From the IMG/VR virus record IMGVR_UViG_3300029732_000280: DNA of 64,000 bases. One strand, written 5' to 3'. Every line of letters starts with the position of its first letter. Within the stretch, counting starts at the first letter, position 1. The notes beneath the pieces are model-generated. The model was not told where the DNA came from, did no database searches, and was given only the letters and a program-made list of their open reading frames with translations. The position numbers and the translations under genes were made by a program. Positions 9,929 to 54,738 of this stretch are shown in pieces. This DNA is from a virus. Taxonomy: Duplodnaviria > Heunggongvirae > Uroviricota > Caudoviricetes.

Positions 9929-10028
9929 AGTTTTCGCTCCTTTCCTGCCCGTTTTCTTCTCTTTGGGCAGTCACATATTCCCTCTGTTTCGTGATATTAT
10001 CAAGTAATTTCGGCGCAGAAAGACGGAG

Positions 10029-10375: not shown

Positions 10376-10391
10376 CAAAGGAGATGATGGC

Positions 10392-29246: not shown

Positions 29247-29304
29247 TTGCGTAACCACCTCCTTGCAGGCATGAAAAAAGCCCATCTGCACGGGACAGAC
29301 AGGC

Positions 29305-39860: not shown

Positions 39861-40339
39861 CAGCTTCCACCTCCTCCCAGCAGATTCTCCATCTCATCAG
39901 CTGCATCCGCAGGACCGCCGTCCGAAGCAATGATCCGGCTTCGGGAGGACGGGGTCAGACCGAATTGCTCTGCAAACTTGTTCATGATCTTCAGATAGGT
40001 CTGGGCGATGGACACCTGCGGCACCTGCTGCCAGTACCCGGACGGGGTCTTGACGATAGTGCCGTGCTGGGTGATGAACTCCTCTGCCTCCTTCCATCGG
40101 GCATACGCCTGACAGTAACCGGCAAAGGCCGCCATGTCCACTTCGGTCAGGATGCCGATGGCTTCCATCTGTTTGGCAAGTCTACGCCACTCTTTCTTTG
40201 CTTCCGGCTCCAGCCACTTCGGACAGGCCGGTGCTTTCTTATTGGGCTTCGGTTCGCTGGTGTTCAGCGGATGCTTGCTCGGATTACCTTCCAGTTCCTT
40301 CATGGCGGTCGGCTTTGGTTTTCTGCCTCTGGTAGCCAT
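39860..40339 (-). CDS. Terminase small subunit, P27 family.
   Basis: MATRGRKPKPTAMKELEGNP N-terminus. Start ATG 40339 with RBS AAAGGAGGAG; the longer track ORF lacks an RBS. Confidence 0.8.
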   Translation of the reverse strand: MATRGRKPKPTAMKELEGNPSKHPLNTSEPKPNKKAPACPKWLEPEAKKEWRRLAKQMEAIGILTEVDMAAFAGYCQAYARWKEAEEFITQHGTIVKTPSGYWQQVPQVSIAQTYLKIMNKFAEQFGLTPSSRSRIIASDGGPADAADEMENLLGGGGS

Positions 40340-40530
40340 TGGCATCTCCTCCTTTCTGCAAAAATGGGTAAGGAAAAAGGACCTCCAAAGAAGTCCTCGA
40401 AATATCATTTTCCTAAACAAGAAACTTTTCTGTATAACTAACAAATAGTTTCCCATTTCGGCAACTTTATATAAAACACATCGGATACGAGGCACAGCCC
40501 CTTTTCGGGGCGTGTACCTTTTGGGTGCTG

Positions 40531-40908
40531 TTAGGCGTTGGGGTTGGCTTCCTTCCAAGCCTCGTATTCATCGACCAGCTCCGCTTCCTCGATGACCTGC
40601 CAGACGCTGCAGAAGCGGCTTCTCTGCTGCTCGATCTCCGCTTCCGTCCAGTCTTCCGGCTTGCGGCTCATGTCGTGGTAGGCGTCCATCTCCGCTTTCG
40701 TCCGGAAGAAAAGGATCTGCTTCAGCTTCAGCGTTTCCTCATTGTTACGCAGGCTGTACCGCCTGTCTTCTGCCGCCCTGCAAAGGCTTCCGAGGTCGCT
40801 GCAGCTGAGGGTCATGTCCTGCTTGAAGGCGATCTCGATGCCAATCAGCTTCTTCTCGGTGTCGGCTCCCTGAATGTTCTTAAGGTAGGTTTTTGCTTTG
40901 TTCGTCAT
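40531..40908 (-). CDS. Hypothetical protein (125 aa), accessory-island cassette 1.
   Basis: Start MTNKAKTYLK with RBS ACGGAGGA. Preceded by promoter-leader copy A. Confidence 0.5.
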   Translation of the reverse strand: MTNKAKTYLKNIQGADTEKKLIGIEIAFKQDMTLSCSDLGSLCRAAEDRRYSLRNNEETLKLKQILFFRTKAEMDAYHDMSRKPEDWTEAEIEQQRSRFCSVWQVIEEAELVDEYEAWKEANPNA

Positions 40909-40995
40909 GGTCTGTATCCTCCGTGTGTTTTGTTTTCCGTAGGGCTTTCCCCTTCGTTGTGACTGTATATTACCGTCACTGCCCGGACATAGCAA
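40909..40995 (-). promoter_or_regulatory. Promoter-leader module copy A: TTGCTA-N17-TAATAT then a conserved ~60-nt 5'UTR (ACAGTCAC..CGAAGGGGAAAGCCC..GGAAAACAAAACACACGGAGGA).
   Basis: Seen directly. Family consensus described in findings. Confidence 0.6.
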
Positions 40996-41107
40996 GCGGC
41001 TATGCTGCACGATCATACACACCTCTTTTTGTCGGATTTATGTGTATTTCCACACTGGAAGAATCCACCACTACGAGCAAAAGCCCCCGAAGGAGCTCTG
41101 CCCTTTT

Positions 41108-41392
41108 TCAGTGTGCGTTCCTGATGCACCACTCGATTGCGTGACCGGCATCCGTGTAGGTCTCATCGGAAATCTTCAGAAGTTCCAGCCGGCATTCAAT
41201 CGGTGACCAGCCTTCCTCCGGGTCTTCCACAAAGCCGTATACCGCTCCCTCCAGCATGCCATTCCAGTTCATCTGGGCAACCAGAACCCGGTCACTGAAC
41301 TGCATGATGCTATCGTAGCAAGGTCTGAGCCGGTCGTAGAAGCTCTCGATGCTGATGTTGTTTTCCGGGAAGTCGATCAAATGCTTTTTCAT
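41108..41392 (-). CDS. Hypothetical acidic protein (94 aa), cassette 2.
   Basis: ATG with RBS GGAGGA. Preceded by module copy B and followed by a hairpin plus TTTTGC terminator. Confidence 0.5.
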   Translation of the reverse strand: MKKHLIDFPENNISIESFYDRLRPCYDSIMQFSDRVLVAQMNWNGMLEGAVYGFVEDPEEGWSPIECRLELLKISDETYTDAGHAIEWCIRNAH

Positions 41393-41478
41393 AGTGAATT
41401 CCTCCGTGTTTTCGTTTTTTCCTTGGGGCTTTCCCCTTTCGGTATGTGCATATTACCGTCAGGTGCAGCAGATAGCAA
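41393..41478 (-). promoter_or_regulatory. Promoter-leader module copy B: TTGCTA-N17-TAATAT then the TGCACATACCGAAAGGGGAAAGCCCC leader.
   Basis: Seen directly. Confidence 0.6.
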
Positions 41479-41527
41479 GCGGCTAAAGTACACGATCTTC
41501 TGCCCGGAATACCAAGCAGAATGTACA

Positions 41528-41734
41528 TCACTCTGCATCCTGTTCCATGAGTTCCACAATGGTATCGTAGAAGAACTGCGGGTCATATGCCAGCGGTTCC
41601 CGTCCGGCTTCCTTATCCATCCTGATCTGGTCTTCCACCATATCCTCGGCATCCTCCAGCGTAAAGGCATCCTTATCGCTGTCATCCATGTGGTTGTAGA
41701 TTTCCACGATGACATCCATCATCCGCTCTTCCAT
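41528..41734 (-). CDS. Hypothetical very acidic protein (68 aa, MEERMMDVIVEIYNHMDDSDKD...).
   Basis: ATG 41734 with RBS AAAGGAGAAG. No module copy upstream; instead a TGCCACCCGTGGCA palindrome and a GCCCCTGTGT direct repeat lie upstream. Confidence 0.45.
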   Translation of the reverse strand: MEERMMDVIVEIYNHMDDSDKDAFTLEDAEDMVEDQIRMDKEAGREPLAYDPQFFYDTIVELMEQDAE

Positions 41735-41864
41735 GTGCTTCTCCTTTCTGGCGCATCCACGCCGCCACATCTGCCCCTGTGTTGGACGTTGTCGGTTCAT
41801 TCGGATCGTTTTTTGCCACCCGTGGCACAAGCCCCTGTGTGGGGCTGTGTCGGGGGCTGTCGGT

Positions 41865-42056
41865 TTATCTGGTCATCCGTCCCAGCAGGTAGGCTTCTTC
41901 CATTGCTTTCTGGATGCCCCAGACCGGAACCTCAATGAAGTCCTCGCTGTCATTATCGCGGGCTTCGAGGTCGCCCCGGCTGTCTACCGCTGCCATCAGG
42001 CGCTTGGCGATCTCCAGCAGGGCTTTTTCCTCTTCCTTGGTGATGTTCTTCTTCAT
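41865..42056 (-). CDS. Hypothetical protein (63 aa), cassette 3.
   Basis: ATG with RBS. Preceded by module copy C. Confidence 0.45.
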   Translation of the reverse strand: MKKNITKEEEKALLEIAKRLMAAVDSRGDLEARDNDSEDFIEVPVWGIQKAMEEAYLLGRMTR

Positions 42057-42129
42057 GGTGGTTTCCTCCGTTTTTCTTGGTTTTCCGTTTCGGTATGTGC
42101 ATATTACCGTCTATGTCACACACTATCAA
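42057..42129 (-). promoter_or_regulatory. Promoter-leader module copy C: TTGATA-N17-TAATAT then the TGCACATACCGAAACGGAAAACC leader.
   Basis: Seen directly. Confidence 0.6.
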
Positions 42130-42226
42130 GCGGCTATACTACACAAATATGTTCCCCCGGAACTGTGCGTATTACGGCAGAAGAAAAGGGCCGCCGTTTC
42201 CGGCAAGCCCCATGTGTTTCTCTGGC

Positions 42227-42676
42227 TTAGTAGTCTTCATCGTCCTCGTAATCTTCCTCTTCGTCCCAGTCATCTTCCTCTTCATCCCAGCTGTCATCCT
42301 GGTCTTCTTCCTCATCTTCGAAGTCCCACATATCTTCAGTCGGCTGGTTTCTAAGGTCTGGGTTCTGCTCGACATAGTCGGCAACCGCTCCGCAAAGGAT
42401 GTCCAGAACCTTTTCGTAGGCTTCCTCGCTGTAGACTGCCCAGGCATCTGCAGTCAGCTTTGCGATTTTGTCGTTGCCCTTGACTCCAAGGAACCGCCCT
42501 GCAGGGTTGCAGGTTTCCTTGCCGTAGCCGATGCCCAGCTGGTCGCCATCGTTGTAAAAGCGGTATCCGATGCGGCTCATTGCCCTTACCAGCTCCCCTG
42601 CGAGGCTGTCTGCCTTGCCCGTCTCCGGTACCAGTTCCTTGAAAAGTTTATTGATGCGTTCTTCGTTCTTCGTCAT
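42227..42676 (-). CDS. Hypothetical protein (149 aa) with an extreme poly-acidic C-terminal tail (DEEEDQDDSWDEEEDDWDEEEDYEDDEDY), cassette 4.
   Basis: Start MTKNEERINK with RBS ACGGAGGA. The longer track ORF simply translates the leader (..SDGNIQ..). Confidence 0.5.
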   Translation of the reverse strand: MTKNEERINKLFKELVPETGKADSLAGELVRAMSRIGYRFYNDGDQLGIGYGKETCNPAGRFLGVKGNDKIAKLTADAWAVYSEEAYEKVLDILCGAVADYVEQNPDLRNQPTEDMWDFEDEEEDQDDSWDEEEDDWDEEEDYEDDEDY

Positions 42677-42749
42677 TGTCGTATCCTCCGTTTTTGTTGT
42701 TTTCCCCTTTCGGTGACTGTATATTACCGTCACCTCGGAGCACTATCAA
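42677..42749 (-). promoter_or_regulatory. Promoter-leader module copy D: TTGATA-N17-TAATAT then the ACAGTCACCGAAAGGGGAAAAC leader.
   Basis: Seen directly. Confidence 0.6.
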
Positions 42750-42878
42750 GCGGCTAAACTACACGATCATTCAATCCTGTAATTGTCATATTTATGTGCT
42801 TCTCATGCCAGCTTTCGGAAGACAGACACGAGCAAAAGGCTGGTCATTTCCAGCCCCTTGCGCCTGTCGGTCTTGCCT

Positions 42879-43139
42879 TTAGCGGATGATTTCAAGGTAG
42901 CTTACGTTGCCCCAGCAGTCCGTTCCCTTGAAGCGGATGCGCTTGTCGTTCTCCCTGTCGAGGGTGAATTTCCGCAGGAGCTTCATCTTCTGGATGCGGT
43001 TCAGAAGGTCCTTGCCGTTCTTCGCATCCTCAACGGCATCCCTGATCTCGACCACCGCGCTGTCGCTTCCGTACCAGAGGTTGCTGAGTGCCTCTGGAAT
43101 TCCGTTTGCAATGTAAAGGCTGATTTTTGTGTAGGTCAT
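42879..43139 (-). CDS. Hypothetical protein (86 aa), second gene of cassette 5.
   Basis: ATG with RBS GAGGAG, 11 nt after the upstream gene. Confidence 0.45.
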   Translation of the reverse strand: MTYTKISLYIANGIPEALSNLWYGSDSAVVEIRDAVEDAKNGKDLLNRIQKMKLLRKFTLDRENDKRIRFKGTDCWGNVSYLEIIR

Positions 43140-43150
43140 GTTTTTTCTCC

Positions 43151-43357
43151 TCAGAATGTCATCGTTTCCAGAATCTCATCCATGCCTGTCTCCCAGTCAT
43201 GGCAGCTAAGTTCGATTTTGCTGTACATCTCTGCGCTGTCCGGCTCATCGAAAAGCCGGAAGCATTCTCTTGCCAGCTCCTCGCTGGTGTGCTGCTGGAT
43301 TTCATCCGGCTGTCCATCCAGCCGTGTAAAGATAATCTCGTAAGTGTAGCGTTCCAT
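43151..43357 (-). CDS. Hypothetical acidic protein (68 aa), first gene of cassette 5.
   Basis: ATG with RBS AAAGGGG. Preceded by module copy E. Confidence 0.45.
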   Translation of the reverse strand: MERYTYEIIFTRLDGQPDEIQQHTSEELARECFRLFDEPDSAEMYSKIELSCHDWETGMDEILETMTF

Positions 43358-43416
43358 GTTCTTTGCCCCTTTCGTTTTGGTAGCTGTATATTACCGTCAC
43401 TGCCGGACACTATCAA
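43358..43416 (-). promoter_or_regulatory. Promoter-leader module copy E: TTGATA-N17-TAATAT with a shortened leader.
   Basis: Seen directly. Confidence 0.55.
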
Positions 43417-43497
43417 GCGGCTAAAGTACACGATCATCTGCGCCCTGAACTGGTGGATTTATGCGTTTATCCGGGGAAGTTTCCCTCCCCGTTTTTC

Positions 43498-43674
43498 TTA
43501 GCTGAACATCTCTGCCGTGTCATCGTCGATCCAGAGGTGCATGCCGTCTGCTTCCATGATTGCGTGGTCTTCATGAACCTCGGTGATGATTCCTTCCCGG
43601 CTTCCGCTACCATCGAATTCGTCCCAGTGCCATGTTGTCTTTCTTCCTTTTTTCCATGTTCTCCAATCAGCCAT
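43498..43674 (-). CDS. Hypothetical acidic protein (58 aa), cassette 6.
   Basis: Start MADWRTWKKG with RBS AAAGGAGGA. Preceded by module copy F. Confidence 0.45.
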   Translation of the reverse strand: MADWRTWKKGRKTTWHWDEFDGSGSREGIITEVHEDHAIMEADGMHLWIDDDTAEMFS

Positions 43675-43734
43675 TCTGCTGTCCTCCTTTGCTTTTTGTA
43701 GCTGTATATTACCGTCACTGCCCTGTGATAGCAA
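43675..43734 (-). promoter_or_regulatory. Promoter-leader module copy F: TTGCTA-N17(ending GACGG)-TAATAT with a short leader.
   Basis: Seen directly. Confidence 0.55.
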
Positions 43735-43804
43735 GGCCATAAAACCTCATATTATCAACGATCTTCGTCCCTCATGTTTGGTACATATATGACCCCTGAT
43801 TGAC

Positions 43805-43883
43805 TTGCTATATATGTGTTTCTGCGGCATTATACACACAACGAAAGCAAAGAAAACCAAACCAAAAACGGAGGACAAAAACC
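43805..43883 (+). promoter_or_regulatory. Promoter-leader module copy G on the plus strand (TTGCTATATATGTGTTTCTGCGG-CATTAT ... CAACGAAAGCAAAG...ACGGAGGA).
   Basis: Same architecture in inverted orientation. Drives the plus-strand gene at 43884. Confidence 0.55.
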
Positions 43884-44135
43884 ATGAAAAAGACCATTAC
43901 AGAAGTTGAAAACGCAATCGAAAACCGCATCGCAGAGCTTGAAGAAGAATACGAGCTGGACATTTACGACCGCAACGACATCCGAGAAGAAGAATACCAG
44001 AAAGCCGGATGGCGGCACGACCCTTTCCCAGAGGAACTTGAGGAAGAAGCCGAAGAAGAGGAAGAGGATTGGCACTACCACAGCATGGAGGAACGACTGA
44101 ACGAGGTCGGCATGAGCATGAGGGATTTCTTCTAA
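43884..44135 (+). CDS. Hypothetical very acidic protein (83 aa, EELEEEAEEEEEDWHYH).
   Basis: ATG with RBS ACGGAGGA. Followed by two plus-strand hairpin plus T-tract terminators (about 44148..44200 and 44224..44255). Confidence 0.5.
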   Translation: MKKTITEVENAIENRIAELEEEYELDIYDRNDIREEEYQKAGWRHDPFPEELEEEAEEEEEDWHYHSMEERLNEVGMSMRDFF

Positions 44136-44254
44136 GGAATCCCCAGAGGCTCCCCAGCAGAGGCTGGGGCTCTGCCTCGTATCCCCCGTTTTGGTTTGGT
44201 ATGATACACAAAACCGCTGCCAGATGTTTGTGTACATTATGGCGGCGGTTTTCC

Positions 44255-44330
44255 TTGCTATCGTTGCTTTCCAGAGGTAATATACAGTAAACTGGAAGGG
44301 GGTTCTCATTCTTTTGAGGCCCCCATTTTC
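44255..44330 (+). promoter_or_regulatory. Promoter module copy H on the plus strand (TTGCTA-N17-TAATAT) followed after ~15 nt by a GGGGG-N17-CCCCC hairpin plus ATTTTCC. No downstream ORF with an RBS. Possible short RNA or decaying copy.
   Basis: Seen directly. The downstream plus-strand ORF 44361..44861 lacks an RBS and is antisense to real minus-strand genes. Confidence 0.35.
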
Positions 44331-44333
44331 CGT

Positions 44334-44525
44334 CTAATCGGCTTCGCCCTGTATTGCCTGATGCATCACCCTGCGGTTATGCGCTCTGGCTTTCTTTTTC
44401 AGATTTCTTTTCCATCTGCGGATGGTCATCGCCTTGCAGTGATTTCTCGACCATTCGTATTCATCCAGAATGTATCTGCCGCCGTGTTCCCTCTCGCCAT
44501 AAGCAGGCATCTTCCTGTGTCCCAT
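44334..44525 (-). CDS. Hypothetical small basic protein (63 aa).
   Basis: ATG with RBS AGGAGGAG. Last gene of the GGCT-1 operon. Confidence 0.45.
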   Translation of the reverse strand: MGHRKMPAYGEREHGGRYILDEYEWSRNHCKAMTIRRWKRNLKKKARAHNRRVMHQAIQGEAD

Positions 44526-44596
44526 AGGCTCCTCCTGTTAAACCAAGCCCTCCCGGTCTTTTCTGGCCGAGAGGGTATTTTTCTGATTGTGCTATC

Positions 44597-44968
44597 TTAT
44601 TCCGGCTTCGTTCCGTCATCCATCTGGATGACTGCCATCTGCCCGAACATGCTGACGAATGCCTCCGGCACCCAGAAGCGTTCCCTGAATTTCTGGATGA
44701 GATCCTGGGGCAGCTCTGCGAAATCTTCCTCGCCCAATCCGCAGATGAAGAAGTTCCCCTTGATGGGCTGCTCCAGTTCCGGGATGTATCTGCTGAATGA
44801 CTTCTCAGTGAACAGCCCGTTGTCATCGGTGACCAGGGCGGCGCGTTCTTCCCACGGGTAGGTGGCTGTGATACAGTCGCAGTCGAGGATGCGGTAGAAC
44901 TCTTTCAGGGAGTTTTCAATGTCCACCACCTGCGGATGCTCCATCGGTTTGATCAGAAGAACCTTCAT
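44597..44968 (-). CDS. Hypothetical protein (123 aa), DUF3846-like N-terminus (MKVLLIKPMEHPQVVDIENSL...).
   Basis: RBS GAAAGGAGG. ATGA overlap with the upstream gene. Confidence 0.45.
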   Translation of the reverse strand: MKVLLIKPMEHPQVVDIENSLKEFYRILDCDCITATYPWEERAALVTDDNGLFTEKSFSRYIPELEQPIKGNFFICGLGEEDFAELPQDLIQKFRERFWVPEAFVSMFGQMAVIQMDDGTKPE

Positions 44969-45432
44969 TCGACCCAGCCTCCTTTCACGATTGCCCAGTC
45001 TGCAAGATGCATCTTCTGCTGTCCGCCCCATGCAATGTCCTCTAATGCTTCCTCCGTTCCGCAGCGGTTGCAGATCTGAATGGCCGCCCTTCGGCTGAGC
45101 GCCTGCTGCTGATGGTCGTAGCAGTCAGGCTTTGCTCCGCACCTGGGGCAACGTGGGCCGGTCTGTCGCGTTTTACCAAGGCGGTCGAGCGACACCTTGA
45201 CCTCGGCATCCGTTGCCACACGGTGGCAACTGTCCGCACCGTAGGCAACGTTCAGATGGCTTCCGGTATCCCAACTCACCAAGATGTTTCCGGCATCATC
45301 GACCCCGTTGCAGGTTCCCTGCGTTCCGATGGGCGGTGCCTGCCTGTCATCCATCTCATCGAGAACGATCCGGCATCCGACCGGGAACTCTTTTCTCAAC
45401 TTCTTGACCATTTTCTGATCTGCGAAATTCAT
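44965..45432 (-). CDS. Hypothetical Cys-rich (zinc-ribbon-like) protein (155 aa).
   Basis: CPRCGAKPDCYDH...ICNRCG motifs. RBS GAGGAGGTG. 4-nt overlap with GGCT-1. Confidence 0.45.
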   Translation of the reverse strand: MNFADQKMVKKLRKEFPVGCRIVLDEMDDRQAPPIGTQGTCNGVDDAGNILVSWDTGSHLNVAYGADSCHRVATDAEVKVSLDRLGKTRQTGPRCPRCGAKPDCYDHQQQALSRRAAIQICNRCGTEEALEDIAWGGQQKMHLADWAIVKGGWVE

Positions 45433-45908
45433 GCCTGCACCTCCTCGATCATCTGCTGGGCGGCATCCTTATCCATGCATTCCTTCAGCGCACCTTCGAG
45501 GATGTGCATCGGGAAGTGGAATGCCTTGTAGCCGTCATGCAAAACTTTGTAGTAATACCGGCTCGGTGCGCGGTGTCCGAAGTCATTCTCCATGATATAT
45601 ACCATTGCGGTCACCATCTCCGGTTCTGCCCCTTCCCGGAGCAGTTCGATGTTCAGGTCTTCCTTGCGGTAGTAGTTCGGGTAGCCCTCATAGAGGTCGA
45701 GGTTTCCTTCGTCTCTTTCCGAGATCTCCCACACCAGAACCGGCGTGTTCTTCTTCGGGTTCGGTGCGATGGTGGCGCAGCCGCGGAACAAAAGCTCCCA
45801 GCCGGCCAGCACCGCCTGCCCTGCAATTTTTGCATCCGGGCATCGGTCTGCCATCTGCTCCACCGACAGGTTGCTGCCGTAGGCGATGTAATATTTCTTG
45901 TTCTTCAT
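45429..45908 (-). CDS. GGCT/AIG2-like (gamma-glutamyl cyclotransferase fold) protein, paralog 1.
   Basis: N-terminal YYIAYGSNLSVEQMADRCP matches the YxAYGSNL motif of GGCT-like enzymes. Preceded by module copy I. Confidence 0.6.
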   Translation of the reverse strand: MKNKKYYIAYGSNLSVEQMADRCPDAKIAGQAVLAGWELLFRGCATIAPNPKKNTPVLVWEISERDEGNLDLYEGYPNYYRKEDLNIELLREGAEPEMVTAMVYIMENDFGHRAPSRYYYKVLHDGYKAFHFPMHILEGALKECMDKDAAQQMIEEVQA

Positions 45909-45985
45909 TTGAATCTCTCCCTTCGGTTTTCTCCGCTCTTGTCTGGCGGTATGGTATATATCACTCTTCTGCCCTGATTTATCAA
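45909..45985 (-). promoter_or_regulatory. Promoter-leader module copy I, diverged: TTGATA-N17-GATATAT then ACCATACCG..GGAGAAAACCGAAGGGAG.
   Basis: Seen directly. Confidence 0.5.
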
Positions 45986-46038
45986 GGCCGATGAGCATCA
46001 TATACTGCACAATGTTTTTTGCTTTTGATCGTGTACTC

Positions 46039-46560
46039 TTACATCATCTGCCGCTTCTTCAGATACCGGATGGCTTCCGCCCTTCCGATACTGGCTGCCA
46101 GTCCACGCTTCAGTGTGTCCAGCGGAAACTCCCAGTCGCTGTATCCGCCCTGCAGCAGTTCAAAATACTCGGCATCCGGGCAGCCAAGCCGCCGGTCCTC
46201 GTGCATCACATAAGCGATGCAGGGCTTTGCCTTTTTCATGCGGTTCCCGTTCAGGTTCCAGACCGGAAGCTGGAACTGCTTCTTGTAGTAGTATCGTGGG
46301 CAGCCCTCGTACCGGTCCAGCAGGAGTTCATCGTATTCCGAGAGTTTCCAGACCACCGCAGGTACGCTTTCATTGGCATCCTGCTCGATGGTGGCATAGC
46401 AGCCGGTCTTGCTCTTTTTGAACAGAAGCCGGTAGCCCTTGATCTCGGTCGTGCCGACCACCACAGCGTAGGGGCATCTCTTTCCCATCCGCTCCATGTC
46501 GAGGTTGCTTCCGTAGGCAAGATAATATCTGGATGGGACTCGGCTGATCAACTCAAACAT
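46039..46560 (-). CDS. GGCT/AIG2-like protein, paralog 2.
   Basis: RYYLAYGSNLDMERMGKRCP motif. Start overlaps the stop of the upstream 78-aa gene by 8 nt. Confidence 0.6.
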   Translation of the reverse strand: MFELISRVPSRYYLAYGSNLDMERMGKRCPYAVVVGTTEIKGYRLLFKKSKTGCYATIEQDANESVPAVVWKLSEYDELLLDRYEGCPRYYYKKQFQLPVWNLNGNRMKKAKPCIAYVMHEDRRLGCPDAEYFELLQGGYSDWEFPLDTLKRGLAASIGRAEAIRYLKKRQMM

Positions 46561-46789
46561 CTGCCTCACCGTCCTCCCTGCCAGTGAATTCCACGCCCTG
46601 GAAATCCTCTGTCCCAAGCTCGATCTGGCTGTCCTGCCACCAGTCCTCTGCCACACGCTGTGCTTCCTCCACGGTCGGCTCTTTCATCTCGGATTCATAA
46701 ATGGTCACCGTTCTCTGGTAGGTCTCGGTGATGGTCACCTTAAAGGTTCTGCCACCCGGTGTGTTTTCATTTTTTAACGTGCTTTTCAT
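46553..46789 (-). CDS. Hypothetical small protein (78 aa) between the amidoligase and GGCT-2.
   Basis: ATG with RBS GAAGGAGGTG. Translationally coupled to GGCT-2. Confidence 0.45.
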   Translation of the reverse strand: MKSTLKNENTPGGRTFKVTITETYQRTVTIYESEMKEPTVEEAQRVAEDWWQDSQIELGTEDFQGVEFTGREDGEADV

Positions 46790-46856
46790 AGACCTGCACC
46801 TCCTTCTACCACCTCAAGGGCGGTTGCCCGCCCAAAAGGTGCCCGTGCATCCCGGC

Positions 46857-47795
46857 TTATTTGTTCCGCCAGGATGCGTTGCCCTCCATGTTCCGCAGAA
46901 GGATTTCCCTTGCCGTTGCAAATTCATCCCCGATGAATCCCAGCCTCAGCATCCAGCACCGCATCGCATACTTTTCATTGTCGGTCTGCTGGGGCTTTGG
47001 GCTTGCCGTCCTGACCATCTTGGCAAGCTGGCTCATTGCGAGGCAAAGCTGGATATAGGCTTTCATCTCACCGGCGTGCAGTCCGTTGCGCTTTCCGTCC
47101 GCTGGGTCTGCGAATTGGAAAAGGCGGAATTCAATGGTCCCTTTTGTAAAGGTGGCATGGAGGTTCAGCATATGGTACCGGCTTGAATTGTAGTGGGCAT
47201 TCCGGTTTTCCCAGCTGGAACCGTTGCCTTCGTACCAAATGTCTTCCAGCTTGCGCATGGTGGTCGGCTTCTCGCGGTTCAGCCGGTCGAGGAAGCGATG
47301 GTTGACCACCTGGCAATATTGTCCGGTGCGCCCTGCATCGATTCGGATGGCTCTGCCGATCTGCTGTTCGTGCGCCGCCATGATATTCACAAGGTTGCGG
47401 ATGGTCTTTGCGGTGTGGTCGCCTTTGCCGATGTGGATGTGAACCCCGCATCCGCGGCTTGGGCCGCTCTTTGCGCCTGCCTTTCGGAGCAGTCGGATAA
47501 TCTCCTGCAGGGTTTCGATGTCGTCGTAGGTGAGGATCGGGGTGACCAGTTCGCATTTTTCTGCGTCCGGTCCGTAGATGCTCACATCCCTCTGGAATTT
47601 CCAAACCCTGCCCTGTCCATCCTTGCAAGCCCAGCTGTAATATCCGTACTCGCTGGCCGCGTTCCATGCTCTGGTTCCGAAGTACTCGGCGACCTTTCTT
47701 GCCGCTTTTTCTCTGGTGATGTTGTTCATCTCGATCTCAACCCCGATGGTCTGGTTCTTCATGGCTTCAATCTGCTCTCTTGTTTTATCGTTCAT
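46857..47795 (-). CDS. Amidoligase (glutamine-synthetase-like carboxylate-amine ligase fold, Amidoligase_2-like), 312 aa.
   Basis: IGVEIEM (E-x-E strand) and GCGVHIHIGKGD (H-x-H) motifs typical of GS-like/GCS2-like amidoligases. Firmicute-type neighbourhood with AIG2/GGCT-like genes. Start ATG 47795. Confidence 0.55.
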   Translation of the reverse strand: MNDKTREQIEAMKNQTIGVEIEMNNITREKAARKVAEYFGTRAWNAASEYGYYSWACKDGQGRVWKFQRDVSIYGPDAEKCELVTPILTYDDIETLQEIIRLLRKAGAKSGPSRGCGVHIHIGKGDHTAKTIRNLVNIMAAHEQQIGRAIRIDAGRTGQYCQVVNHRFLDRLNREKPTTMRKLEDIWYEGNGSSWENRNAHYNSSRYHMLNLHATFTKGTIEFRLFQFADPADGKRNGLHAGEMKAYIQLCLAMSQLAKMVRTASPKPQQTDNEKYAMRCWMLRLGFIGDEFATAREILLRNMEGNASWRNK

Positions 47796-47880
47796 GGTAT
47801 GTTCTCCTTTGTTTTTTCCTTGTTTTCCCTTTCGGTATGTGCATATTACCGTCATTACCGTCAGGTGCGGATAATAGCAA
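47796..47880 (-). promoter_or_regulatory. Promoter-leader module copy J: TTGCTA...GACGGTAAT GACGGTAATAT (9-bp internal duplication) then the TGCACATACCGAAAGGGAAAAC leader.
   Basis: Seen directly. Confidence 0.55.
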
Positions 47881-48036
47881 GGATATAAAAGAACATATAT
47901 TCGACAAATATAAGGCAGAATGATCGTGTACATTTCTGCAGTTTTTCCGCTTGATAATATACATTTTCAGAGCTAATATCGGTACAATGGAAGAGGGTCT
48001 CGCATATTTTCCGGCCCCCATTGGGGGATTGGGAGC

Positions 48037-49221
48037 TTACGCTCCCGCCTCCAGCATCTGCGCCGTGTCTGCCCCACAATCGGGCTGTGTCGGCTGGTTT
48101 TCTTCCTGTTCGACCGTTTCCCCTGTGGCAGGATCGCCGTTCTGTGCCGCCAGTTTCGCGGCTTTCAGGGCATCCCGTTTTGCCTTTTCCCTTGCAAGGA
48201 ACTTCTGTGCTTCCTCATCCGTGCGGAAAGCCGCATGGCCGGAAAGGTTCTCCATGAGGATCTTGCGTGTCTCTTTGAAATCCGGACCGTTCATCCCCAG
48301 CCGCAGGAGCCATGTGCGGAGTGCGTATTTCTCATTCTCATCGTTGACATCCTTTGCCTGGATGCGCTTCTGGCTGATAGCCTGCTGGTTCATCAGCACC
48401 GCCAGCTGTGCAAAAGCCGTCAGATGTTCGTGGTCCGGTGCAGTCGGGAAGCCGGTAAAGGTGACCTTCTCGGTGGTGATCTTCAGGCCTTCCAGTGCAG
48501 CACCATGTTCAGTCTCATAGTCGCTGACCGCATTGATGAAGTTCATGATGGCAAAGGTGCAGCTATCGTCCTTCAGCTTCTCGACCAGCCCCTCTTCCAC
48601 ATGGAAGTGTCCTCCAGTCGCCTTGCCGATGAGCTTGCCGCGGCTGTAAAGAAGGTTGACCAGGTTGCGGAGTGTCACACCGTTGTGCTGGCTGACCGGG
48701 AATGCAAGTTCCAAGTCCAGCGGCACCTCTTCCGGCTGATCTTCTGTCTCCTGCGATTCTGCATCCGGCTCATCCTCTATGGTATCATCCTCAGCCGTAT
48801 TGTCCGGCTCCAATGCATCCTCGGCTCCTGCTTCCGCAGGTTCATCTTCTGCGGTATCTGCATCTTCGGATTCCTGCTCGTCCAGAACCTCCAGCTCTGC
48901 TTCGGGCATCTGCTCAGTTTCCGCTTCGGTCACAGGCTCCTCATCCATATCCGCTGTCAGCTCTGTGTCCTCCGGCTGGTCATCCGTGCTCTCAATACTC
49001 TCGCCGCCGCGGATCAGTCCCTCATTCAGCAGGGTCGTCAGCAGCTCGGCATCTGCATTCTCCGGCTCGACCAGAAGGTTGCCATTCCGGTCGATGGTGT
49101 AGCTCCCGATGTCGTAAGAATACAGAGGTGCTTTGGTATAGTAAGGGTGGATGCCGGTCAGCTCCTCCATGCGTTTTGCGAGGGTCTTTCTCTCGGCTAC
49201 GTTCAGTTTAAATTTCAACAT
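48037..49221 (-). CDS. Hypothetical 394-aa protein: unknown N-terminal domain, a ~100-aa poly-acidic linker, and a C-terminal region homologous to the amidoligase C-terminus.
   Basis: NDENEKYALRTWLLRLGMNGPDFKETRKILMENL here, compared with TDNEKYAMRCWMLRLGFIGDEFATAREILLRNM in the amidoligase. Preceded by module copy K. Confidence 0.5.
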   Translation of the reverse strand: MLKFKLNVAERKTLAKRMEELTGIHPYYTKAPLYSYDIGSYTIDRNGNLLVEPENADAELLTTLLNEGLIRGGESIESTDDQPEDTELTADMDEEPVTEAETEQMPEAELEVLDEQESEDADTAEDEPAEAGAEDALEPDNTAEDDTIEDEPDAESQETEDQPEEVPLDLELAFPVSQHNGVTLRNLVNLLYSRGKLIGKATGGHFHVEEGLVEKLKDDSCTFAIMNFINAVSDYETEHGAALEGLKITTEKVTFTGFPTAPDHEHLTAFAQLAVLMNQQAISQKRIQAKDVNDENEKYALRTWLLRLGMNGPDFKETRKILMENLSGHAAFRTDEEAQKFLAREKAKRDALKAAKLAAQNGDPATGETVEQEENQPTQPDCGADTAQMLEAGA

Positions 49222-49312
49222 AATTCATCGCTCCTTTTCGTTCATTTGTTTTTGTGCATCCCGATGTTCTTTTCGGTAGCACATATATCACTCTAAAACG
49301 GATGAATAGCAA
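49222..49312 (-). promoter_or_regulatory. Promoter-leader module copy K, diverged: TTGCTA-N17-GATATAT then TGTGCTACCGAAAAGAACA...AAAGGAG.
   Basis: Seen directly. Confidence 0.5.
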
Positions 49313-49444
49313 GGCCATTTCCCGATATTCTTCATGTTCGACCATTTACACAAGGGACCGCAAAATCTGTTGTGTAAATAGGACCAATATGTAAGCCCAC
49401 CATATCAACAGGTCGCTTTCTACCTAGTAATATAGCGGGCCAGT

Positions 49445-52955: not shown

Positions 52956-52976
52956 GTAAGCCCTCCTAATTCAGAT

Positions 52977-53201
52977 TCACATGCGCATGACCCCGGAGAA
53001 CGGCACGAAAAAGGAGCCGAACAAAAAGCCCGACTCCATCTCATCTCCATCTTCCTGCGGCTGTTCAGCCATCTCGCACCATTCCGGGTTTTCCCCGTTC
53101 ACGGATGCCAGGACCTTATCTTCCGCATCGTCAATCGCATGTACACAGATACCCCCGGTGTTGAACATCGGAAACACACCGATAATCTTACTCACCCTCA
53201 T
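52977..53201 (-). CDS. Hypothetical small acidic protein (74 aa).
   Basis: ORF only. Compact operon context. Confidence 0.3.
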   Translation of the reverse strand: MRVSKIIGVFPMFNTGGICVHAIDDAEDKVLASVNGENPEWCEMAEQPQEDGDEMESGFLFGSFFVPFSGVMRM

Positions 53202-53688: not shown

Positions 53689-53974
53689 CGCCCTCCTTCC
53701 AGCGTCCTTTGTTTGCACAGGCACGGCTGCAATATTTCCGTTCCAGACCATACTGGTGCCGGTAGGAAAACTCCCTGCCGCACACCGGGCAGATCTTCGA
53801 CCGCACGGTCTTCCAGTTCTCCGGCTTTGGATGGGTGTTGTTCCACCGTGACCGGCATTCCGGTGAGCAGAACTTCCGTGGTCTGCCTTTATGGTTTGGT
53901 ACGATTGCCGTACCGCACTGAGGGCAGAAGGAAAAAGCCATGTCCCTGATCATCTCAGCCGTGTAATCTTCCAT
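53654..53974 (-). CDS. Hypothetical Cys-rich protein (106 aa), paralog of the preceding gene (RKFCSPEC, RKYCSRAC).
   Basis: ATG with RBS GAGGTGAGGG. Confidence 0.45.
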   Translation of the reverse strand: MEDYTAEMIRDMAFSFCPQCGTAIVPNHKGRPRKFCSPECRSRWNNTHPKPENWKTVRSKICPVCGREFSYRHQYGLERKYCSRACANKGRWKEGDANGRTAEHRT

Positions 53975-54735: not shown

Positions 54736-54738
54736 GGG

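What the first reader, a model, noticed from the sequence alone, without database searches (positions are those of the whole stretch)
40531..49312. Accessory island of single-gene cassettes, each with a near-identical promoter plus conserved 5'UTR (at least 11 copies, both orientations)
Between the methyltransferase block and TerS, almost every gene is preceded by the same ~60-90-bp module. The module is CTTGCTAT or CTTGATA, then N13-15 ending in GACGG or CTGCGG, then TAATAT, GATATA or CATTAT, then a conserved A-rich leader (ACAGTCAC or TGCACATA, CCGAAAGGGGAAA..AAAAC) ending in the SD ACGGAGGA. Each cassette is also followed by its own hairpin terminator. Copies lie at 40909, 41393, 42057, 42677, 43358, 43675, 47796, 49222 and 45909 on the minus strand and at 43805 and 44255 on the plus strand. 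The XRE promoter at 3979 belongs to the same family. Most products are small (58-150 aa) and strikingly acidic (poly-D/E tails, EEEEEDW), which is the profile of DNA-mimic anti-restriction or anti-defence proteins. The ORF track's in-frame SDGNIQ / PDGNMHIPKG peptides are translations of the leader itself. So many independently promoted and terminated cassettes in a compact phage genome are unusual. They suggest a modular, recombination-driven anti-defence or early moron island, with a shared leader that could carry a common regulatory signal.
Basis: partly seen in the sequence, partly recalled or inferred. Interest (0 to 1): 0.8.

Follow-up and report, generated by a model that had tools for sequence, protein, structure and literature searches.

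The report
Repeated promoter-leader cassettes in gut phage
A temperate phage of human-gut Clostridia puts the same ~100-base promoter-plus-leader in front of each small accessory gene just upstream of its DNA-packaging genes, and related phages have swapped, gained and lost genes behind these repeats, much as T4-type phages do with their "PeSL" cassettes.

Summary
Eight full copies of a ~90-115-nt module lie only at 40.9-47.9 kb (nhmmer E 1e-16 to 1e-25). The module is an upstream GATCGTGTA box, then CTTGMTA, a 17-nt spacer ending in TGACGG, TAATAT, a purine-rich unstructured leader with GAAAGGGG, and usually a second SD. Four more promoters belong to a diverged subtype. Two of these face antisense and have no gene.

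The module recurs in at least 120 IMG/VR contigs and about 30 Clostridia genomes, in 3-9 copies, always between the methylase/amidoligase block and TerS. Among 506 harvested copies the spacer is 17 nt in 472. Its sequence varies freely except for the invariant TGACGG. This is the signature of selection on a sigma-A-type promoter.

The module precedes at least 28 unrelated protein families. Relatives differ by whole-cassette indels and replacements, with breakpoints enriched in the modules.

The best reading is PeSL-like promoter-leader cassettes in a hyperplastic region. The anti-defence/DNA-mimic reading is unproven. Most products are acidic, but there is no homology or fold match to ArdA, Ocr or any named anti-defence protein.

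Promoter activity, timing and any dedicated regulator remain inferred. This is a new variant of a known kind, of moderate interest.

The parts
40909..41025 (-). Module copy 1 (type A). -35 TTGCTA at 40990-40995, -10 TAATAT at 40967-40972. 58-nt leader with GGGGAAAGCCC mini-hairpin and SD ACGGAGGA. Drives gene 40531-40908.
   Evidence: nhmmer E 5e-21; coordinates
41393..41508 (-). Module copy 2 (type A). -35 at 41473-41478, -10 at 41450-41455. Drives the Nmad4 gene 41108-41392.
   Evidence: nhmmer E 2.5e-23; Pfam
42057..42159 (-). Module copy 3 (type A). -35 TTGATA at 42124-42129, -10 at 42101-42106. Drives the DUF6900 gene 41865-42056, probably together with 41528-41734, which has no module of its own here.
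   Evidence: nhmmer E 1.9e-23
42677..42779 (-). Module copy 4 (type A). -35 at 42744-42749, -10 at 42721-42726. Drives the 149-aa acidic protein gene 42227-42676.
   Evidence: nhmmer E 8e-25
43358..43446 (-). Module copy 5 (type A, short leader). GAAAGGGG itself serves as the SD. -35 at 43411-43416, -10 at 43388-43393. Drives the bicistron 43151-43357 plus 42879-43139.
   Evidence: nhmmer E 7.7e-21
43675..43764 (-). Module copy 6 (type A, short leader). -35 at 43729-43734, -10 at 43706-43711. Drives the 58-aa gene 43498-43674.
   Evidence: nhmmer E 3.6e-17
43775..43883 (+). Module copy 7, opposite orientation. -35 TTGCTA at 43805-43810, spacer ending CTGCGG, -10 CATTAT at 43828-43833. Drives the 83-aa acidic gene 43884-44135. 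Divergent from copy 6.
   Evidence: nhmmer E 1.5e-16
47796..47910 (-). Module copy 8 (type A) upstream of the amidoligase operon (46857-47795, 46553-46789, 46039-46560). -35 at 47875-47880. A private 9-bp tandem duplication GACGGTAAT at 47844-47861 makes the spacer 26 nt, or the -10 TAATGA.
   Evidence: nhmmer E 2.5e-19; the duplication is absent from about 50 orthologous copies
45909..45990 (-). Type-B promoter. TTGATA at 45980-45985, 17 nt ending AGAGT, GATATA at 45957-45962. Leader TACCATACCG... Drives the operon GGACT (45429-45908), DUF4314 (44965-45432), DUF3846 (44597-44968), and perhaps 44334-44525.
49222..49312 (-). Type-B promoter. TTGCTA at 49307-49312, GATATA at 49284-49289. Leader ...CTACCGAAAAG... 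Drives the 394-aa acidic amidoligase-like gene 48037-49221.
44255..44332 (+). Orphan type-B promoter (TTGCTA-17-TAATAT at 44255-44283) followed by a hairpin (44294-44331), with no ORF. It is antisense to the 3' end of gene 44334-44525. Paralogous to 47951-48035.
47951..48035 (+). Second orphan type-B promoter (TTGATA-17-TAATAT at 47951-47979) plus a similar hairpin-forming stretch. It is antisense to the 3' end of gene 48037-49221 and has its own GATCGTGTA box at 47922-47930.
40531..44135 (.). Small-cassette half of the island. It holds ten ORFs of 58-149 aa. Nine lie on the minus strand: 40531-40908, 41108-41392, 41528-41734, 41865-42056, 42227-42676, 42879-43139, 43151-43357 and 43498-43674. 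One lies on the plus strand: 43884-44135. Most are acidic ORFans. Nmad4 and DUF6900 are the only Pfam hits.
44334..49221 (-). Operon half of the island. In order: 63-aa basic protein, DUF3846, DUF4314, two GGACT/AIG2 cyclotransferase-like proteins, DpnD/PcfM-like, Amidoligase_2, and a 394-aa acidic amidoligase-like paralogue.
42825..42868 (-). Strongest inter-cassette hairpin (dG -27.6, followed by UUUUGCU within the stem). It is an example of the GC hairpins that end cassettes. Others lie at 40492-40517, 41082-41097, 41500-41519, 41814-41845, 42189-42209, 43472-43491, 44136-44173(+), 44549-44574 and 46810-46841.
40377..40398 (-). Canonical intrinsic terminator (9-bp stem plus T run) in the 185-nt non-coding gap between the last cassette and the TerS start (40345). 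It separates the island from the late/structural operon.
   Evidence: (TerS)
9975..10004 (-). Only family-like promoter outside the island (type B: CTTGATA-N17-GAATAT). It lies 46 nt upstream of the serine recombinase gene 7568-9928.

Best explanation
The repeats are portable promoter-leader modules. Each carries a host sigma-A-type promoter: -35 CTTGMTA, a strict 17-nt spacer and -10 TAATAT. After it comes a short, unstructured, purine-rich 5'UTR. The UTR holds an SD-like GAAAGGGG and, in the longer versions, a second SD (GGAGG) next to the start codon.

Each module independently transcribes and translates one or two small accessory genes. GC hairpins between the cassettes, and a canonical terminator in front of terS, keep the units apart from each other and from the late operon.

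The same ~100 nt flanks many unrelated genes in many related phages. It therefore also serves as a patch of homology at which cassettes are inserted, lost, replaced and reordered. This makes the zone between the methylase/amidoligase block and terS a hyperplastic region of an otherwise conserved HK97-like temperate phage of gut Clostridia. In function it matches the PeSL cassettes of T4-type phages.

Shown here: the repeat, its restriction to the island, its conservation pattern, its spread, the diversity of downstream genes, and cassette-level polymorphism with junctions at the modules.

Inferred: that it fires as a sigma-A promoter, the time at which it fires, and that the invariant TGACGG and the upstream GTGTA box are contacts for a common regulator.
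For: - Repeat: 8 full copies at E 1e-16 to 1e-25, confined to the island. Core pattern 6 hits against 0 expected, and 9 against 0.01.
- Orientation and position: the module always points at the downstream start codon. It sits 30-62 nt from the -10, also for the plus-strand gene.
- Constraint pattern: the spacer is exactly 17 nt in 472 of 506 copies. The -35, the TGACGGTAATAT block and the ACC-AAAGG leader are conserved at up to 2 bits. The first 11 spacer positions carry almost no information.
- The leader is not a structured RNA (z -1.45 to +1.07). Rfam has no match. It is not coding, because leader lengths fall in all three frames.
- The module precedes 28 unrelated protein clusters.
- Cassette order strings differ among relatives.
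- Gene 43151-43357 is precisely absent in L054, with the junction in the leader. In L077 it sits behind a different module copy.
- Two genes that lack a module of their own in the window have one elsewhere: cluster 7 in 22 loci and cluster 18 in L129.
- 18 of 77 distinct alignment breakpoints fall in the 9.9% of the island occupied by modules, p = 4e-4.
- The same gene carries different -35 and initial-transcribed-region variant combinations in different phages.
- In L021 only the ORF of cassette 42227-42676 drops to about 75% identity. It lies between flanking modules that are 95-100% identical.
- The position between the amidoligase/GGACT genes and TerS is conserved in relatives whose TerS/TerL are only 79-90% identical. 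These carry 3 to 9 modules.
- The PeSL definition and behaviour come from PMC2839356 and PMC4122927.
Against: - There are no transcription data, so promoter activity, strength and TSS rest on consensus likeness only.
- The generic promoter scan is not enriched over shuffles (8 against 6.2).
- TAATAT is only 4/6 to TATAAT. The invariant TGACGG is not part of any sigma-A consensus I know, so a phage factor may be required.
- Many inter-cassette hairpins lack U tracts, so insulation may be leaky.
- Breakpoint enrichment is moderate, about 2.4-fold, and relies on BLAST HSP ends.
- At least one indel junction lies in the purine-rich SD region rather than in the promoter proper.
- The harvested loci were found through the core pattern itself. 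This inflates apparent conservation of the -35 and -10 for at least one copy per locus.
Confidence: 0.68

Rival explanations
1. The modules are a regulon under a dedicated phage- or host-encoded factor rather than plain constitutive sigma-A promoters. In this reading the invariant TGACGG abutting the -10 and the upstream (C/T)GTGTA box are the binding site of that factor. The factor could be a repressor, as with Reg on the EGeRS2 promoters of plasmid p576, Aca on anti-CRISPR promoters, or stoperator-type immunity repressors. It could instead be an activator or sigma appropriator that times the whole island. This can coexist with the cassette-shuffling role.
For: - TGACGG is conserved at about 2 bits across 28 paralogous contexts, while the rest of the spacer is free.
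- GATCGTGYA occurs 6 times exactly, all in the island, including upstream of the orphan plus-strand promoter.
- The distance from this box to the -35 differs by about 10 nt in the 47951 copy, one helical turn.
- Type-B promoters replace TGACGG by AGAG-NN and are used for other genes. This suggests two regulatory classes.
- The EGeRS2/Reg precedent is described in PMC8708921.
Against: - No island product hits a DNA-binding family.
- The two modelled proteins show no HTH, RHH or sigma fold match.
- The motif is not palindromic or tandemly repeated as most operators are.
- The XRE repressor's own promoter lacks TGACGG.
- The motif is conserved across hosts of different families. This fits a universal RNAP contact as well as a phage factor.
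Confidence: 0.3
2. The island is an anti-defence ('leading-end') island. In this reading the small acidic products are DNA mimics or other inhibitors of restriction or other defences. They would be expressed immediately from their own promoters, because this end of a cos genome is injected first.
For: - 12 of 17 products have pI 4.0-5.1, several with poly-D/E tails.
- The cassettes are ORFans with high turnover.
- The island adjoins two DNA methyltransferases and a SAM synthetase.
- Nmad4 and DpnD/PcfM are families named for association with DNA modification or R-M and conjugative elements.
- The HK97-like head module, a Terminase_4 TerS and an HNH gene suggest cos packaging. That would place the island at the last-packaged, first-ejected end. 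This rests on lambda/HK97 precedent only.
Against: - No homology to ArdA, Ocr, KlcA, ArdC, Acr or any named anti-defence family in Pfam, PHROGs or NCBIfam.
- The 149-aa acidic protein is a confident helical bundle with no PDB match (best E 2.8). Its charge sits mainly in a disordered tail.
- The cos site and genome ends were not mapped.
- Acidity is common among small phage proteins of many functions.
Confidence: 0.3
3. The repeats are mobile-element ends (MITE or IS remnants) or integron-like attC sites rather than promoters.
For: Multi-copy ~100-nt repeats occur in both orientations. Cassette-like gene turnover is seen.
Against: - No terminal inverted repeats or target-site duplications surround a copy. 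The only inverted pairs are whole modules in opposite orientation.
- Every copy is oriented towards, and ends at, a start codon at a near-fixed distance.
- The strict 17-nt hexamer spacing is a promoter property, not a recombination-site property.
- No integron integrase lies next to the island. The serine recombinases are 30 kb away.
- The predicted strands are unstructured, unlike attC.
Confidence: 0.03
4. The similarity is only a relic of recent tandem duplication or gene conversion, or is a conserved N-terminal coding extension, and carries no regulatory meaning.
For: - Copies within one genome are 61-86% identical over 44-99 nt.
- Public gene calls often extend the ORF through the module. 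For example, 161-aa versions of the 125-aa protein exist.
- In-frame SDGNIQ peptides are visible.
Against: - Conservation is position-specific. Hexamers, spacing and TGACGG are fixed while the intervening spacer is scrambled. Duplication or conversion alone would not produce this pattern.
- The module is read in all three frames relative to the downstream ORF. A good SD sits at the proper distance from the internal ATG.
Confidence: 0.04

Closest known systems
PeSL (promoter-early stem-loop) cassettes of T4-type myoviruses (Arbiol et al. 2010, PMC2839356; Comeau et al. 2014, PMC4122927)
   Same: - Multi-copy sigma-70-type promoter motifs ending in an SD and start codon.
- Concentrated in hyperplastic regions in front of small ORFans.
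- Accompanied by GC stem-loops that separate the units.
- Indel and replacement junctions between close relatives fall at the motifs.
   Different: - The sequence is unrelated.
- The host is Gram-positive gut Clostridia and the phage is a temperate HK97-like phage, not a lytic T4-like one.
- The stem-loop is a separate element 23-90 nt upstream of the -35, not embedded in the promoter.
- There is no AT-rich upstream region. A conserved GATCGTGTA box and an invariant TGACGG take its place.
- A conserved 5'UTR with a second SD-like element is part of the repeat.
- Promoter and terminator activity and mini-circles are untested here.
EGeRS2 establishment-gene regulatory sequences of plasmid p576 / pLS20-family clade II (Val-Calvo et al., PMC8708921, PMC6294495)
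   Same: - Several 50-68% identical copies of a strong sigma-A promoter region sit upstream of separate small operons of variable, mostly unknown-function genes in a Firmicutes mobile element.
- The repeat served there as the handle that defined the regulon.
- Conserved sequence lies immediately upstream of the -35.
   Different: - There, the repeat contains a defined dual-heptamer operator bound by an RHH repressor. That repressor is encoded in the regulon, and an ArdC anti-restriction gene anchors the function.
- Here no operator repeat, repressor gene or known anti-restriction gene was found.
- The element here is a phage, not a conjugative plasmid.
Morons of lambdoid and other temperate phages (promoter-gene-terminator units; Hendrix concept, from established knowledge)
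   Same: Autonomous small transcription units with their own promoter and hairpin. They are inserted between conserved modules, and GC is slightly lower than in the flanks.
   Different: - Morons are usually single, each with its own unrelated promoter, and are defined by expression in the lysogen.
- Here a whole array shares one promoter-leader family.
- Expression state is unknown.
Start-associated sequences (SAS/ESAS) of Cluster K and stoperators of Cluster A mycobacteriophages (PMC3203893, PMC9283540, PMC6550527)
   Same: Short, asymmetric, orientation-specific conserved motifs repeated many times in intergenic regions just upstream of genes in temperate siphoviruses. They are presumed or shown to coordinate expression.
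   Different: - SAS is a 13-bp element at the RBS. Stoperators are 13-14-bp repressor sites spread across the whole genome that block elongation.
- Here the repeat is a complete ~100-nt promoter plus leader and is confined to one island.

Membership tests
PeSL-type regulatory cassette | Repeated sigma-70/sigma-A-like promoter (-35, ~17 nt, -10) ending in an SD and the start codon of the downstream ORF | tested here: met
   TTGMTA-17-TAATAT in all full copies. The spacer is 17 nt in 472 of 506 harvested copies. SD and ATG lie 30-62 nt downstream. This is sequence evidence only.
PeSL-type regulatory cassette | Stable stem-loop forming one composite motif with the promoter (within it, overlapping it, or just upstream) | tested here: inconclusive
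   GC hairpins (dG -11 to -28) lie 23-90 nt upstream of the next -35, after the preceding stop codon. None is embedded between or over the hexamers. Only some have U tracts.
PeSL-type regulatory cassette | [quoted passage not shown] | tested here: not met
   The upstream 20 nt is the conserved ATGATCGTGTAnnTTAGCCG or TTGTGTACATTATGG box, about 45-55% GC.
PeSL-type regulatory cassette | Concentration in a hyperplastic region in front of ORFans, with indel and replacement junctions between related phages at the motifs | tested here: met
   (18 of 77 breakpoints against 9.9% expected, p = 4e-4)
PeSL-type regulatory cassette | Demonstrated promoter and terminator activity; mini-circle formation | not testable with these tools
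   Needs reporter assays, RNA 5'-end mapping and PCR across circular junctions.
EGeRS2/Reg-type establishment regulon | Repeated operator motif flanking the promoter and a repressor gene inside the regulon preceded by the same sequence | tested here: not met
   No dual or tandem operator repeat is seen. The conserved boxes are single and asymmetric. No island product matches a DNA-binding family. Two modelled products show no HTH or RHH fold match.
EGeRS2/Reg-type establishment regulon | A recognised establishment or anti-restriction gene (e.g. ardC) among the regulated genes | tested here: not met
   No such family is found in Pfam, PHROGs or NCBIfam for any of the 17 island products.
DNA-mimic anti-restriction proteins (ArdA/Ocr type) | Strongly acidic protein | tested here: met
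   pI 4.0-5.1 for 12 of 17 products. Net charge is -30 for the 149-aa protein and -21 for the 83-aa protein.
DNA-mimic anti-restriction proteins (ArdA/Ocr type) | Sequence or fold membership in ArdA, Ocr or another solved DNA mimic | tested here: not met
   For the 149-aa protein, the profile search against PDB sequences gives a best E of 0.061 to an unrelated enzyme. The AF2 model has pLDDT 88. Foldseek against PDB gives a best E of 2.8 and TM at most 0.46. Only this one acidic product was tested for fold.
DNA-mimic anti-restriction proteins (ArdA/Ocr type) | Inhibition of a restriction or other defence system | not testable with these tools
   Requires plaque or transformation assays.
Moron | Own promoter and own terminator flanking a gene inserted between conserved phage genes | tested here: met
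   GC is 47.6-53% in the cassette half against 54-57% in the flanks.
Moron | Expression from the repressed prophage | not testable with these tools
   Needs a lysogen transcriptome.
Stoperator-type repressor sites | Short asymmetric site, orientation tied to transcription, many copies across the whole genome | tested here: not met
   TGACGGTAATAT is asymmetric and co-oriented with transcription. However, exact copies occur only in the island: 7 exact, with the other matches carrying 1-2 mismatches and scattered.
MITE / transposon ends | Terminal inverted repeats and target-site duplications; placement independent of genes | tested here: not met
   There are no TIRs around single copies. The position relative to start codons is fixed.
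Known structured RNA leader (riboswitch, attenuator, Rfam family) | Match to an Rfam model or a significantly stable or covarying fold | tested here: not met
   No Rfam hit at E <= 1 apart from a chance snRNA match. Leader fold z-scores are -1.45 to +1.07.

The most novel reading that the evidence does not exclude
The module may be more than a promoter. It could be the docking and regulatory unit of a promoter-delimited cassette-exchange system, an 'integron without integrase'. In this reading a common factor reads the invariant TGACGG-TAATAT and the upstream GTGTA box. It fires the whole array at once from the first-injected end of the genome. The interchangeable cargo is a pool of still-unknown anti-defence or host-takeover proteins, traded among temperate phages that are found at 95-98% identity in isolates of different Clostridia families.
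Probability: 0.2. Interest if true: 0.75.

Novelty: new variant of a known kind. Interest (0 to 1): 0.52.

Why it matters
1. It extends the PeSL principle from lytic T4-like phages of Gram-negatives to an abundant family of temperate phages of human-gut Clostridia. The principle is that shared regulatory repeats act both as expression signals and as recombination scaffolds. This suggests a general route to accessory-gene turnover.

2. The module is a precise search key. With one pattern I recovered several hundred cassettes and 28 protein families. This works in the same 'guilt by promoter' way that EGeRS repeats or aca genes were used to define establishment and anti-CRISPR genes. The result is a ready candidate list for anti-defence or host-takeover screens.

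3. The part is compact: about 60 nt of promoter plus about 40 nt of unstructured leader with an SD. It is conserved in elements resident in Blautia, Faecalibacterium, Clostridium fessum, Lawsonibacter and others. That makes it an attractive candidate expression part for genetically difficult gut anaerobes.

4. The invariant TGACGG next to the -10 is an unexplained promoter feature and could reveal a new RNAP contact or regulator.

5. On the practical side, gene callers frequently extend ORFs through the module, so public annotations of these cassettes are often wrong at the N terminus.

Tried and rejected
- My first collection scan used the wrong spacing (N14-18 before GACGG) and found nothing. 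That was my error, not biology.
- Megablast of the island against GenBank phages gave only one unannotated fragment, MT836278. There is therefore no annotated reference phage.
- Rfam found no family for leaders, orphan promoters or hairpins.
- The structured-leader idea is rejected, because fold z-scores are not significant.
- A leader peptide or uORF is rejected. There is no start codon after the first SD-like element, as the leader sequences themselves show.
- The coding-extension idea is rejected, because the module is read in all three frames.
- The MITE/attC idea is rejected.
- Methylation control through GATC in the upstream box: GATC is not unusual in this genome (obs/exp 0.78, 330 sites). 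I dropped this for lack of signal.
- I considered alternative sigma factors by eye (SigD, SigF/G, ECF) for the GGTAATAT/TGACGG region. None fits both hexamers and the spacing better than sigma-A. This is memory-based and not a formal test.
- The search for a regulator or late activator among island products gave nothing. I used Pfam, PHROGs, NCBIfam, PDB profile searches and two AlphaFold models with Foldseek.
- The afdb50 fold library was unavailable.
- The literature search found no description of this motif or phage group.

Full report
WHAT IS THERE

The window is a phage. Its minus strand reads, in the direction of transcription:
- SNF2 helicase, D5-type primase-helicase and a MazF-like protein;
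- an HNH endonuclease, a SAM synthetase, a ParB-N6 methylase and a C5 methylase (49.4-62.8 kb);
- the island (40.5-49.3 kb);
- an HK97-type head module: Terminase_4 TerS at 39860-40345, TerL, portal, ClpP protease and capsid;
- tail genes, lysins and three large serine recombinases with an XRE gene at the left end.

THE REPEAT IS REAL

Reading the upstream 150 nt of every island start codon shows a common module. I built a profile from the clearest copies. It hits eight places at E 8e-25 to 1.5e-16 and nothing else in the 64 kb better than E 0.007.
- Minus-strand copies end at start codons 40908, 41392, 42056, 42676, 43357, 43674 and 47795.
- One plus-strand copy ends at 43884.
- The exact core CTTGMTA-N12-GACGGTAATATRCA occurs six times against 0.00 expected.
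- The looser CTTGMTA-N17-KAWWAT occurs nine times against 0.01 expected.

All eleven coordinates in the finding hold a TTGMTA, 17 nt, A/T-hexamer element in the stated orientation.

In type B the six bases before the -10 read AGAG-NN rather than TGACGG, and the hexamer is GATATA or TAATAT. The only family-like promoter outside the island is also type B. It lies at 9975-10004, upstream of a serine recombinase gene. The XRE promoter at 3979 shares only a generic TTGCTAT...CTGCGG-GATAAT layout and none of the leader.

ANATOMY OF THE MODULE (5' to 3' on the transcribed strand)
1. An upstream box, ATGATCGTGTAnnTTAGCCG, or TTGTGTACATTATGG in other subtypes.
2. C-TTGMTA, the -35.
3. A spacer of 17 nt. 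Its first 11 bases vary freely and its last six are TGACGG.
4. TAATAT, the -10.
5. One of three initial-transcribed variants: ACAGTCAC, ACAGCTAC or GCACATAC.
6. CGAAAGGGGAAA.
7. An A-rich stretch.
8. ACGGAGGA, then 6-8 nt, then ATG.

In the two short-leader copies (43357 and 43674) the GAAAGGGG or AAAGGAGG element is itself the Shine-Dalgarno sequence.

The predicted leaders are unstructured, with MFE z-scores from -1.45 to +1.07. Rfam has nothing in the region. The module is not coding. The distance from the -10 to the start codon takes values in all three frames.

TRANSCRIPTION UNITS

In 40.5-44.2 kb, eight modules head ten small ORFs. There are two bicistrons: 43151-43357 with 42879-43139, and probably 41865-42056 with 41528-41734.

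In 44.3-49.3 kb there are only three promoters, and they head operons:
- type B at 45909: GGACT, DUF4314, DUF3846;
- type A at 47795: Amidoligase_2, DpnD/PcfM-like, GGACT;
- type B at 49222: a 394-aa acidic amidoligase-like protein.

GC-rich hairpins (dG -11 to -28 kcal/mol) follow nearly every unit within about 25 nt of the stop codon, but only some carry a U tract. A canonical terminator at 40377-40398 sits in the 185-nt gap just before terS.

SPREAD

Two single hits, in a Zixibacteriota MAG and a Pristimantibacillus chromosome, look like chance matches. All other genome hits are Clostridia, with up to seven copies per locus: Blautia, Faecalibacterium intestinale, Clostridium fessum, Lawsonibacter, Wujia, Acetatifactor, Oribacterium, Acutalibacteraceae and Oscillospiraceae. 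The profile finds 564 copies in these loci, 347 of them unique.

In relatives whose TerS/TerL are only 79-90% identical, the array (3-9 modules) still sits between the amidoligase/GGACT/DUF4314 genes and TerS.

SELECTION, NOT JUST COPYING

Among 506 anchored copies the hexamer spacing is exactly 17 nt in 472. I took consensus sequences of the module in front of 28 different genes and compared them. The conserved parts are CTTGcTAt, tGACGGTAATAT and .CA...ACc.AAA.G.AAA. The rest of the spacer is scrambled.

Fixed hexamers and fixed spacing with a free spacer are what selection on a sigma-70/sigma-A-type promoter produces. Duplication or gene conversion alone would not spare just those positions. 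The invariant TGACGG and the upstream GTGTA box go beyond the sigma-A consensus. They are the best candidates for a shared regulatory contact.

One caveat applies. Each locus was found through the core pattern, which inflates conservation of the hexamers for at least one copy per locus. The other copies, the leader and the upstream box were not selected for.

CASSETTE TURNOVER
- The module precedes at least 28 unrelated protein clusters.
- Order strings differ among relatives. The window type is 5-6-4-2-3-1-0. Others are 5-4-7-2-3-1-0, 6-7-2-12-3-1-0, 2-9-6-8-10 and 21-3-26-8-2-27-1-24-0.
- The window and L054 are near-identical, except that gene 43151-43357 is precisely absent from L054. The junction lies inside the leader (GAAAGGG|). 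In L077 the same gene sits behind a different module copy at another position.
- Two genes without a module of their own in the window have one elsewhere: 42879-43139 in 22 loci and 41528-41734 in L129.
- Of 77 distinct alignment end-points in the island against 151 loci, 18 fall in the 9.9% of sequence occupied by the eight modules (p = 4e-4).
- The same gene is found behind different combinations of -35 variant and initial-transcribed variant.
- In L021 only the ORF 42227-42676 falls to about 70-80% identity. The modules on either side are 95-100% identical. This is a single-cassette replacement bounded by modules.

WHAT THE PRODUCTS ARE

Pfam names the following:
- Nmad4: 41108-41392
- DUF6900: 41865-42056
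- DUF3846: 44597-44968
- DUF4314: 44965-45432
- GGACT/AIG2, twice: 45429-45908 and 46039-46560
- DpnD/PcfM: 46553-46789
- Amidoligase_2: 46857-47795

PHROGs adds only 'gamma-glutamyl cyclotransferase' and 'amidoligase'. NCBIfam adds nothing.

Twelve of 17 products have pI 4.0-5.1. The most acidic cassette protein has 149 aa and a net charge of -30.
- It has 784 homologues, none annotated.
- Its AlphaFold model is confident (pLDDT 88). It shows a helical bundle with a disordered acidic tail.
- It has no sequence or fold match in the PDB: best profile E 0.061 and best Foldseek E 2.8.

The 125-aa protein of the last cassette before terS is likewise a confident all-alpha model with no match. The DNA-mimic/anti-defence reading is therefore neither supported nor excluded. 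It rests on charge, ORFan turnover, and the neighbouring methylases and SAM synthetase.

MOST LIKELY MECHANISM

Each module is an autonomous sigma-A-type promoter with an unstructured, ribosome-friendly leader. The array expresses many small accessory genes independently. Hairpins, and the terminator in front of terS, limit read-through into the late operon. The shared ~100 nt provides homology for exchange of cargo among co-infecting or resident relatives.

The dual SD-like leader is most simply explained as the footprint of such exchanges. The ancestral short leader uses GAAAGGGG as its SD. Genes arriving with their own SD then create the long form (inference).

By lambda/HK97 precedent, a cos site just upstream of a Terminase_4 terS would make the island the last-packaged, first-injected end. 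That would suit immediate expression. This is inference only.

COMPARISON WITH THE KNOWN

The closest functional analogue is the PeSL of T4-type phages. PeSLs are strong sigma-70-like promoters with stem-loops in hyperplastic regions, in front of ORFans, with recombination between them driving indels (PMC2839356, PMC4122927).

Differences from PeSLs:
- the sequence is unrelated;
- the phage is temperate and HK97-like, in Gram-positive gut anaerobes;
- the hairpin is a separate element;
- there is no AT-rich upstream tract;
- a conserved leader is part of the repeat.

A second analogue is the EGeRS2 repeat of plasmid p576. There, similar strong promoters with Reg operators define an establishment regulon (PMC8708921). 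Here no operator repeat, repressor or ardC was found.

Morons, Cluster K start-associated sequences and Cluster A stoperators share single features only.

I found no paper describing this motif or this phage group.

VERDICT

This is a genuine and widespread regulatory repeat. It is a new variant of the known 'promoter cassette in a hyperplastic region' theme. Promoter function and regulation remain to be shown, and the anti-defence label is unproven.

Noticed in passing
window 44255-44332 (+) and 47951-48035 (+): Two paralogous ~85-nt elements, about 60% identical. Each is a type-B promoter (TTGMTA-17-TAATAT) followed after ~12 nt by GGAAGrGGG...GGCCCCCATT, a hairpin-forming stretch, with no ORF. 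Each points antisense into the 3' end of a minus-strand gene (44334-44525 and 48037-49221). Both are conserved at 87-100% in about 41 related loci. They could make ~45-50-nt cis-antisense RNAs or act as convergent insulators.
   Followed up: partly
window 47844-47861: A private 9-bp tandem duplication (GACGGTAAT x2) in the promoter of the amidoligase operon stretches the 17-nt spacer to 26 nt, or leaves a TAATGA -10. None of about 50 orthologous copies in relatives has it. It is either a promoter-down mutation in this genome or an assembly artefact.
   Followed up: yes
L140, L147, L148 versus window 40300-49400: The island is 98.0% identical in the isolate genome of Faecalibacterium intestinale CLA-AA-H281 (Oscillospiraceae). 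It is 96.5% identical in Blautia faecis DFI.3.66 (Lachnospiraceae) and 95.6% in Clostridium fessum SNUG30386. Near-identical prophage DNA thus occurs in isolates of different families. The phage is about 55% GC. Either host range is very broad, transfer was recent, or there is contamination.
   Followed up: partly
window 40346-40530, terminator 40377-40398 (-): A 185-nt non-coding, AT-richer gap lies between the last cassette and terS. It contains a canonical intrinsic terminator about 30 nt before the TerS start, with no obvious promoter after it. Late-operon expression may need read-through or antitermination. The gap is also the likeliest place for cos.
   Followed up: no
window 975-2807, 5233-7533, 7568-9928 (-); 2818-3798 (-); XRE at ~4048 (+): Three large serine recombinases (610, 766 and 786 aa) lie at the left end, together with an AAA_25/KaiC-like ATPase and an XRE gene. 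The 786-aa recombinase is preceded by the only family-like (type-B) promoter outside the island.
   Followed up: partly
window 49445-55806 (-): A self-methylation block lies directly upstream of the island. It comprises a 749-aa C5 methyltransferase, a ParB-N6/N4 methyltransferase fusion, a phage-encoded SAM synthetase (MetK, 54739-55806) and an HNH endonuclease (54376-54735). GGCC and ACGT are strongly under-represented in the window (obs/exp 0.46 and 0.42), which suggests restriction avoidance.
   Followed up: partly
window 48037-49221 (-): This 394-aa protein matches the same PHROG (2443, amidoligase) as its neighbour 46857-47795. It shares that neighbour's C-terminal motif (NEKYA.R.W.LRLG) but has no Pfam Amidoligase_2 hit. 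It carries a long, extremely acidic central insert (net charge -54). It may be a degenerate or repurposed paralogue.
   Followed up: no
public proteins P0123, P0125, P0129 and others; P0005, P0004: Public gene calls for cassette proteins are often 36-65 aa too long, for example 161 aa instead of 125 aa. The ORF stays open through the module, so gene callers pick an upstream GTG or ATG inside the promoter. This is a systematic N-terminal mis-annotation in this phage family.
   Followed up: partly
window 23337-29291 (-): The 1984-aa ORF, presumably the tape measure, contains extensive 33-, 66- and 132-nt periodic direct repeats (families D1, D2, D6, D7, D9 and D16).
   Followed up: no
window 58514-59230 (-) and 10215-10997 (+): A 238-aa protein with a C-terminal PemK/MazF toxin domain lies next to the D5 primase-helicase. 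A PBECR4 (Barnase-EndoU-ColicinE5/D-RelE-like) nuclease gene lies on the opposite strand between the lysin and recombinase genes. Both are possible toxin or abortive-infection cargo.
   Followed up: no
window 46027-46050 (+): A sixth exact GATCGTGTA box lies on the plus strand, followed by GCCGCTTCTTCAGATA. This looks like a decayed plus-strand module. It now overlaps the last codons and the stop of the minus-strand gene 46039-46560.
   Followed up: no
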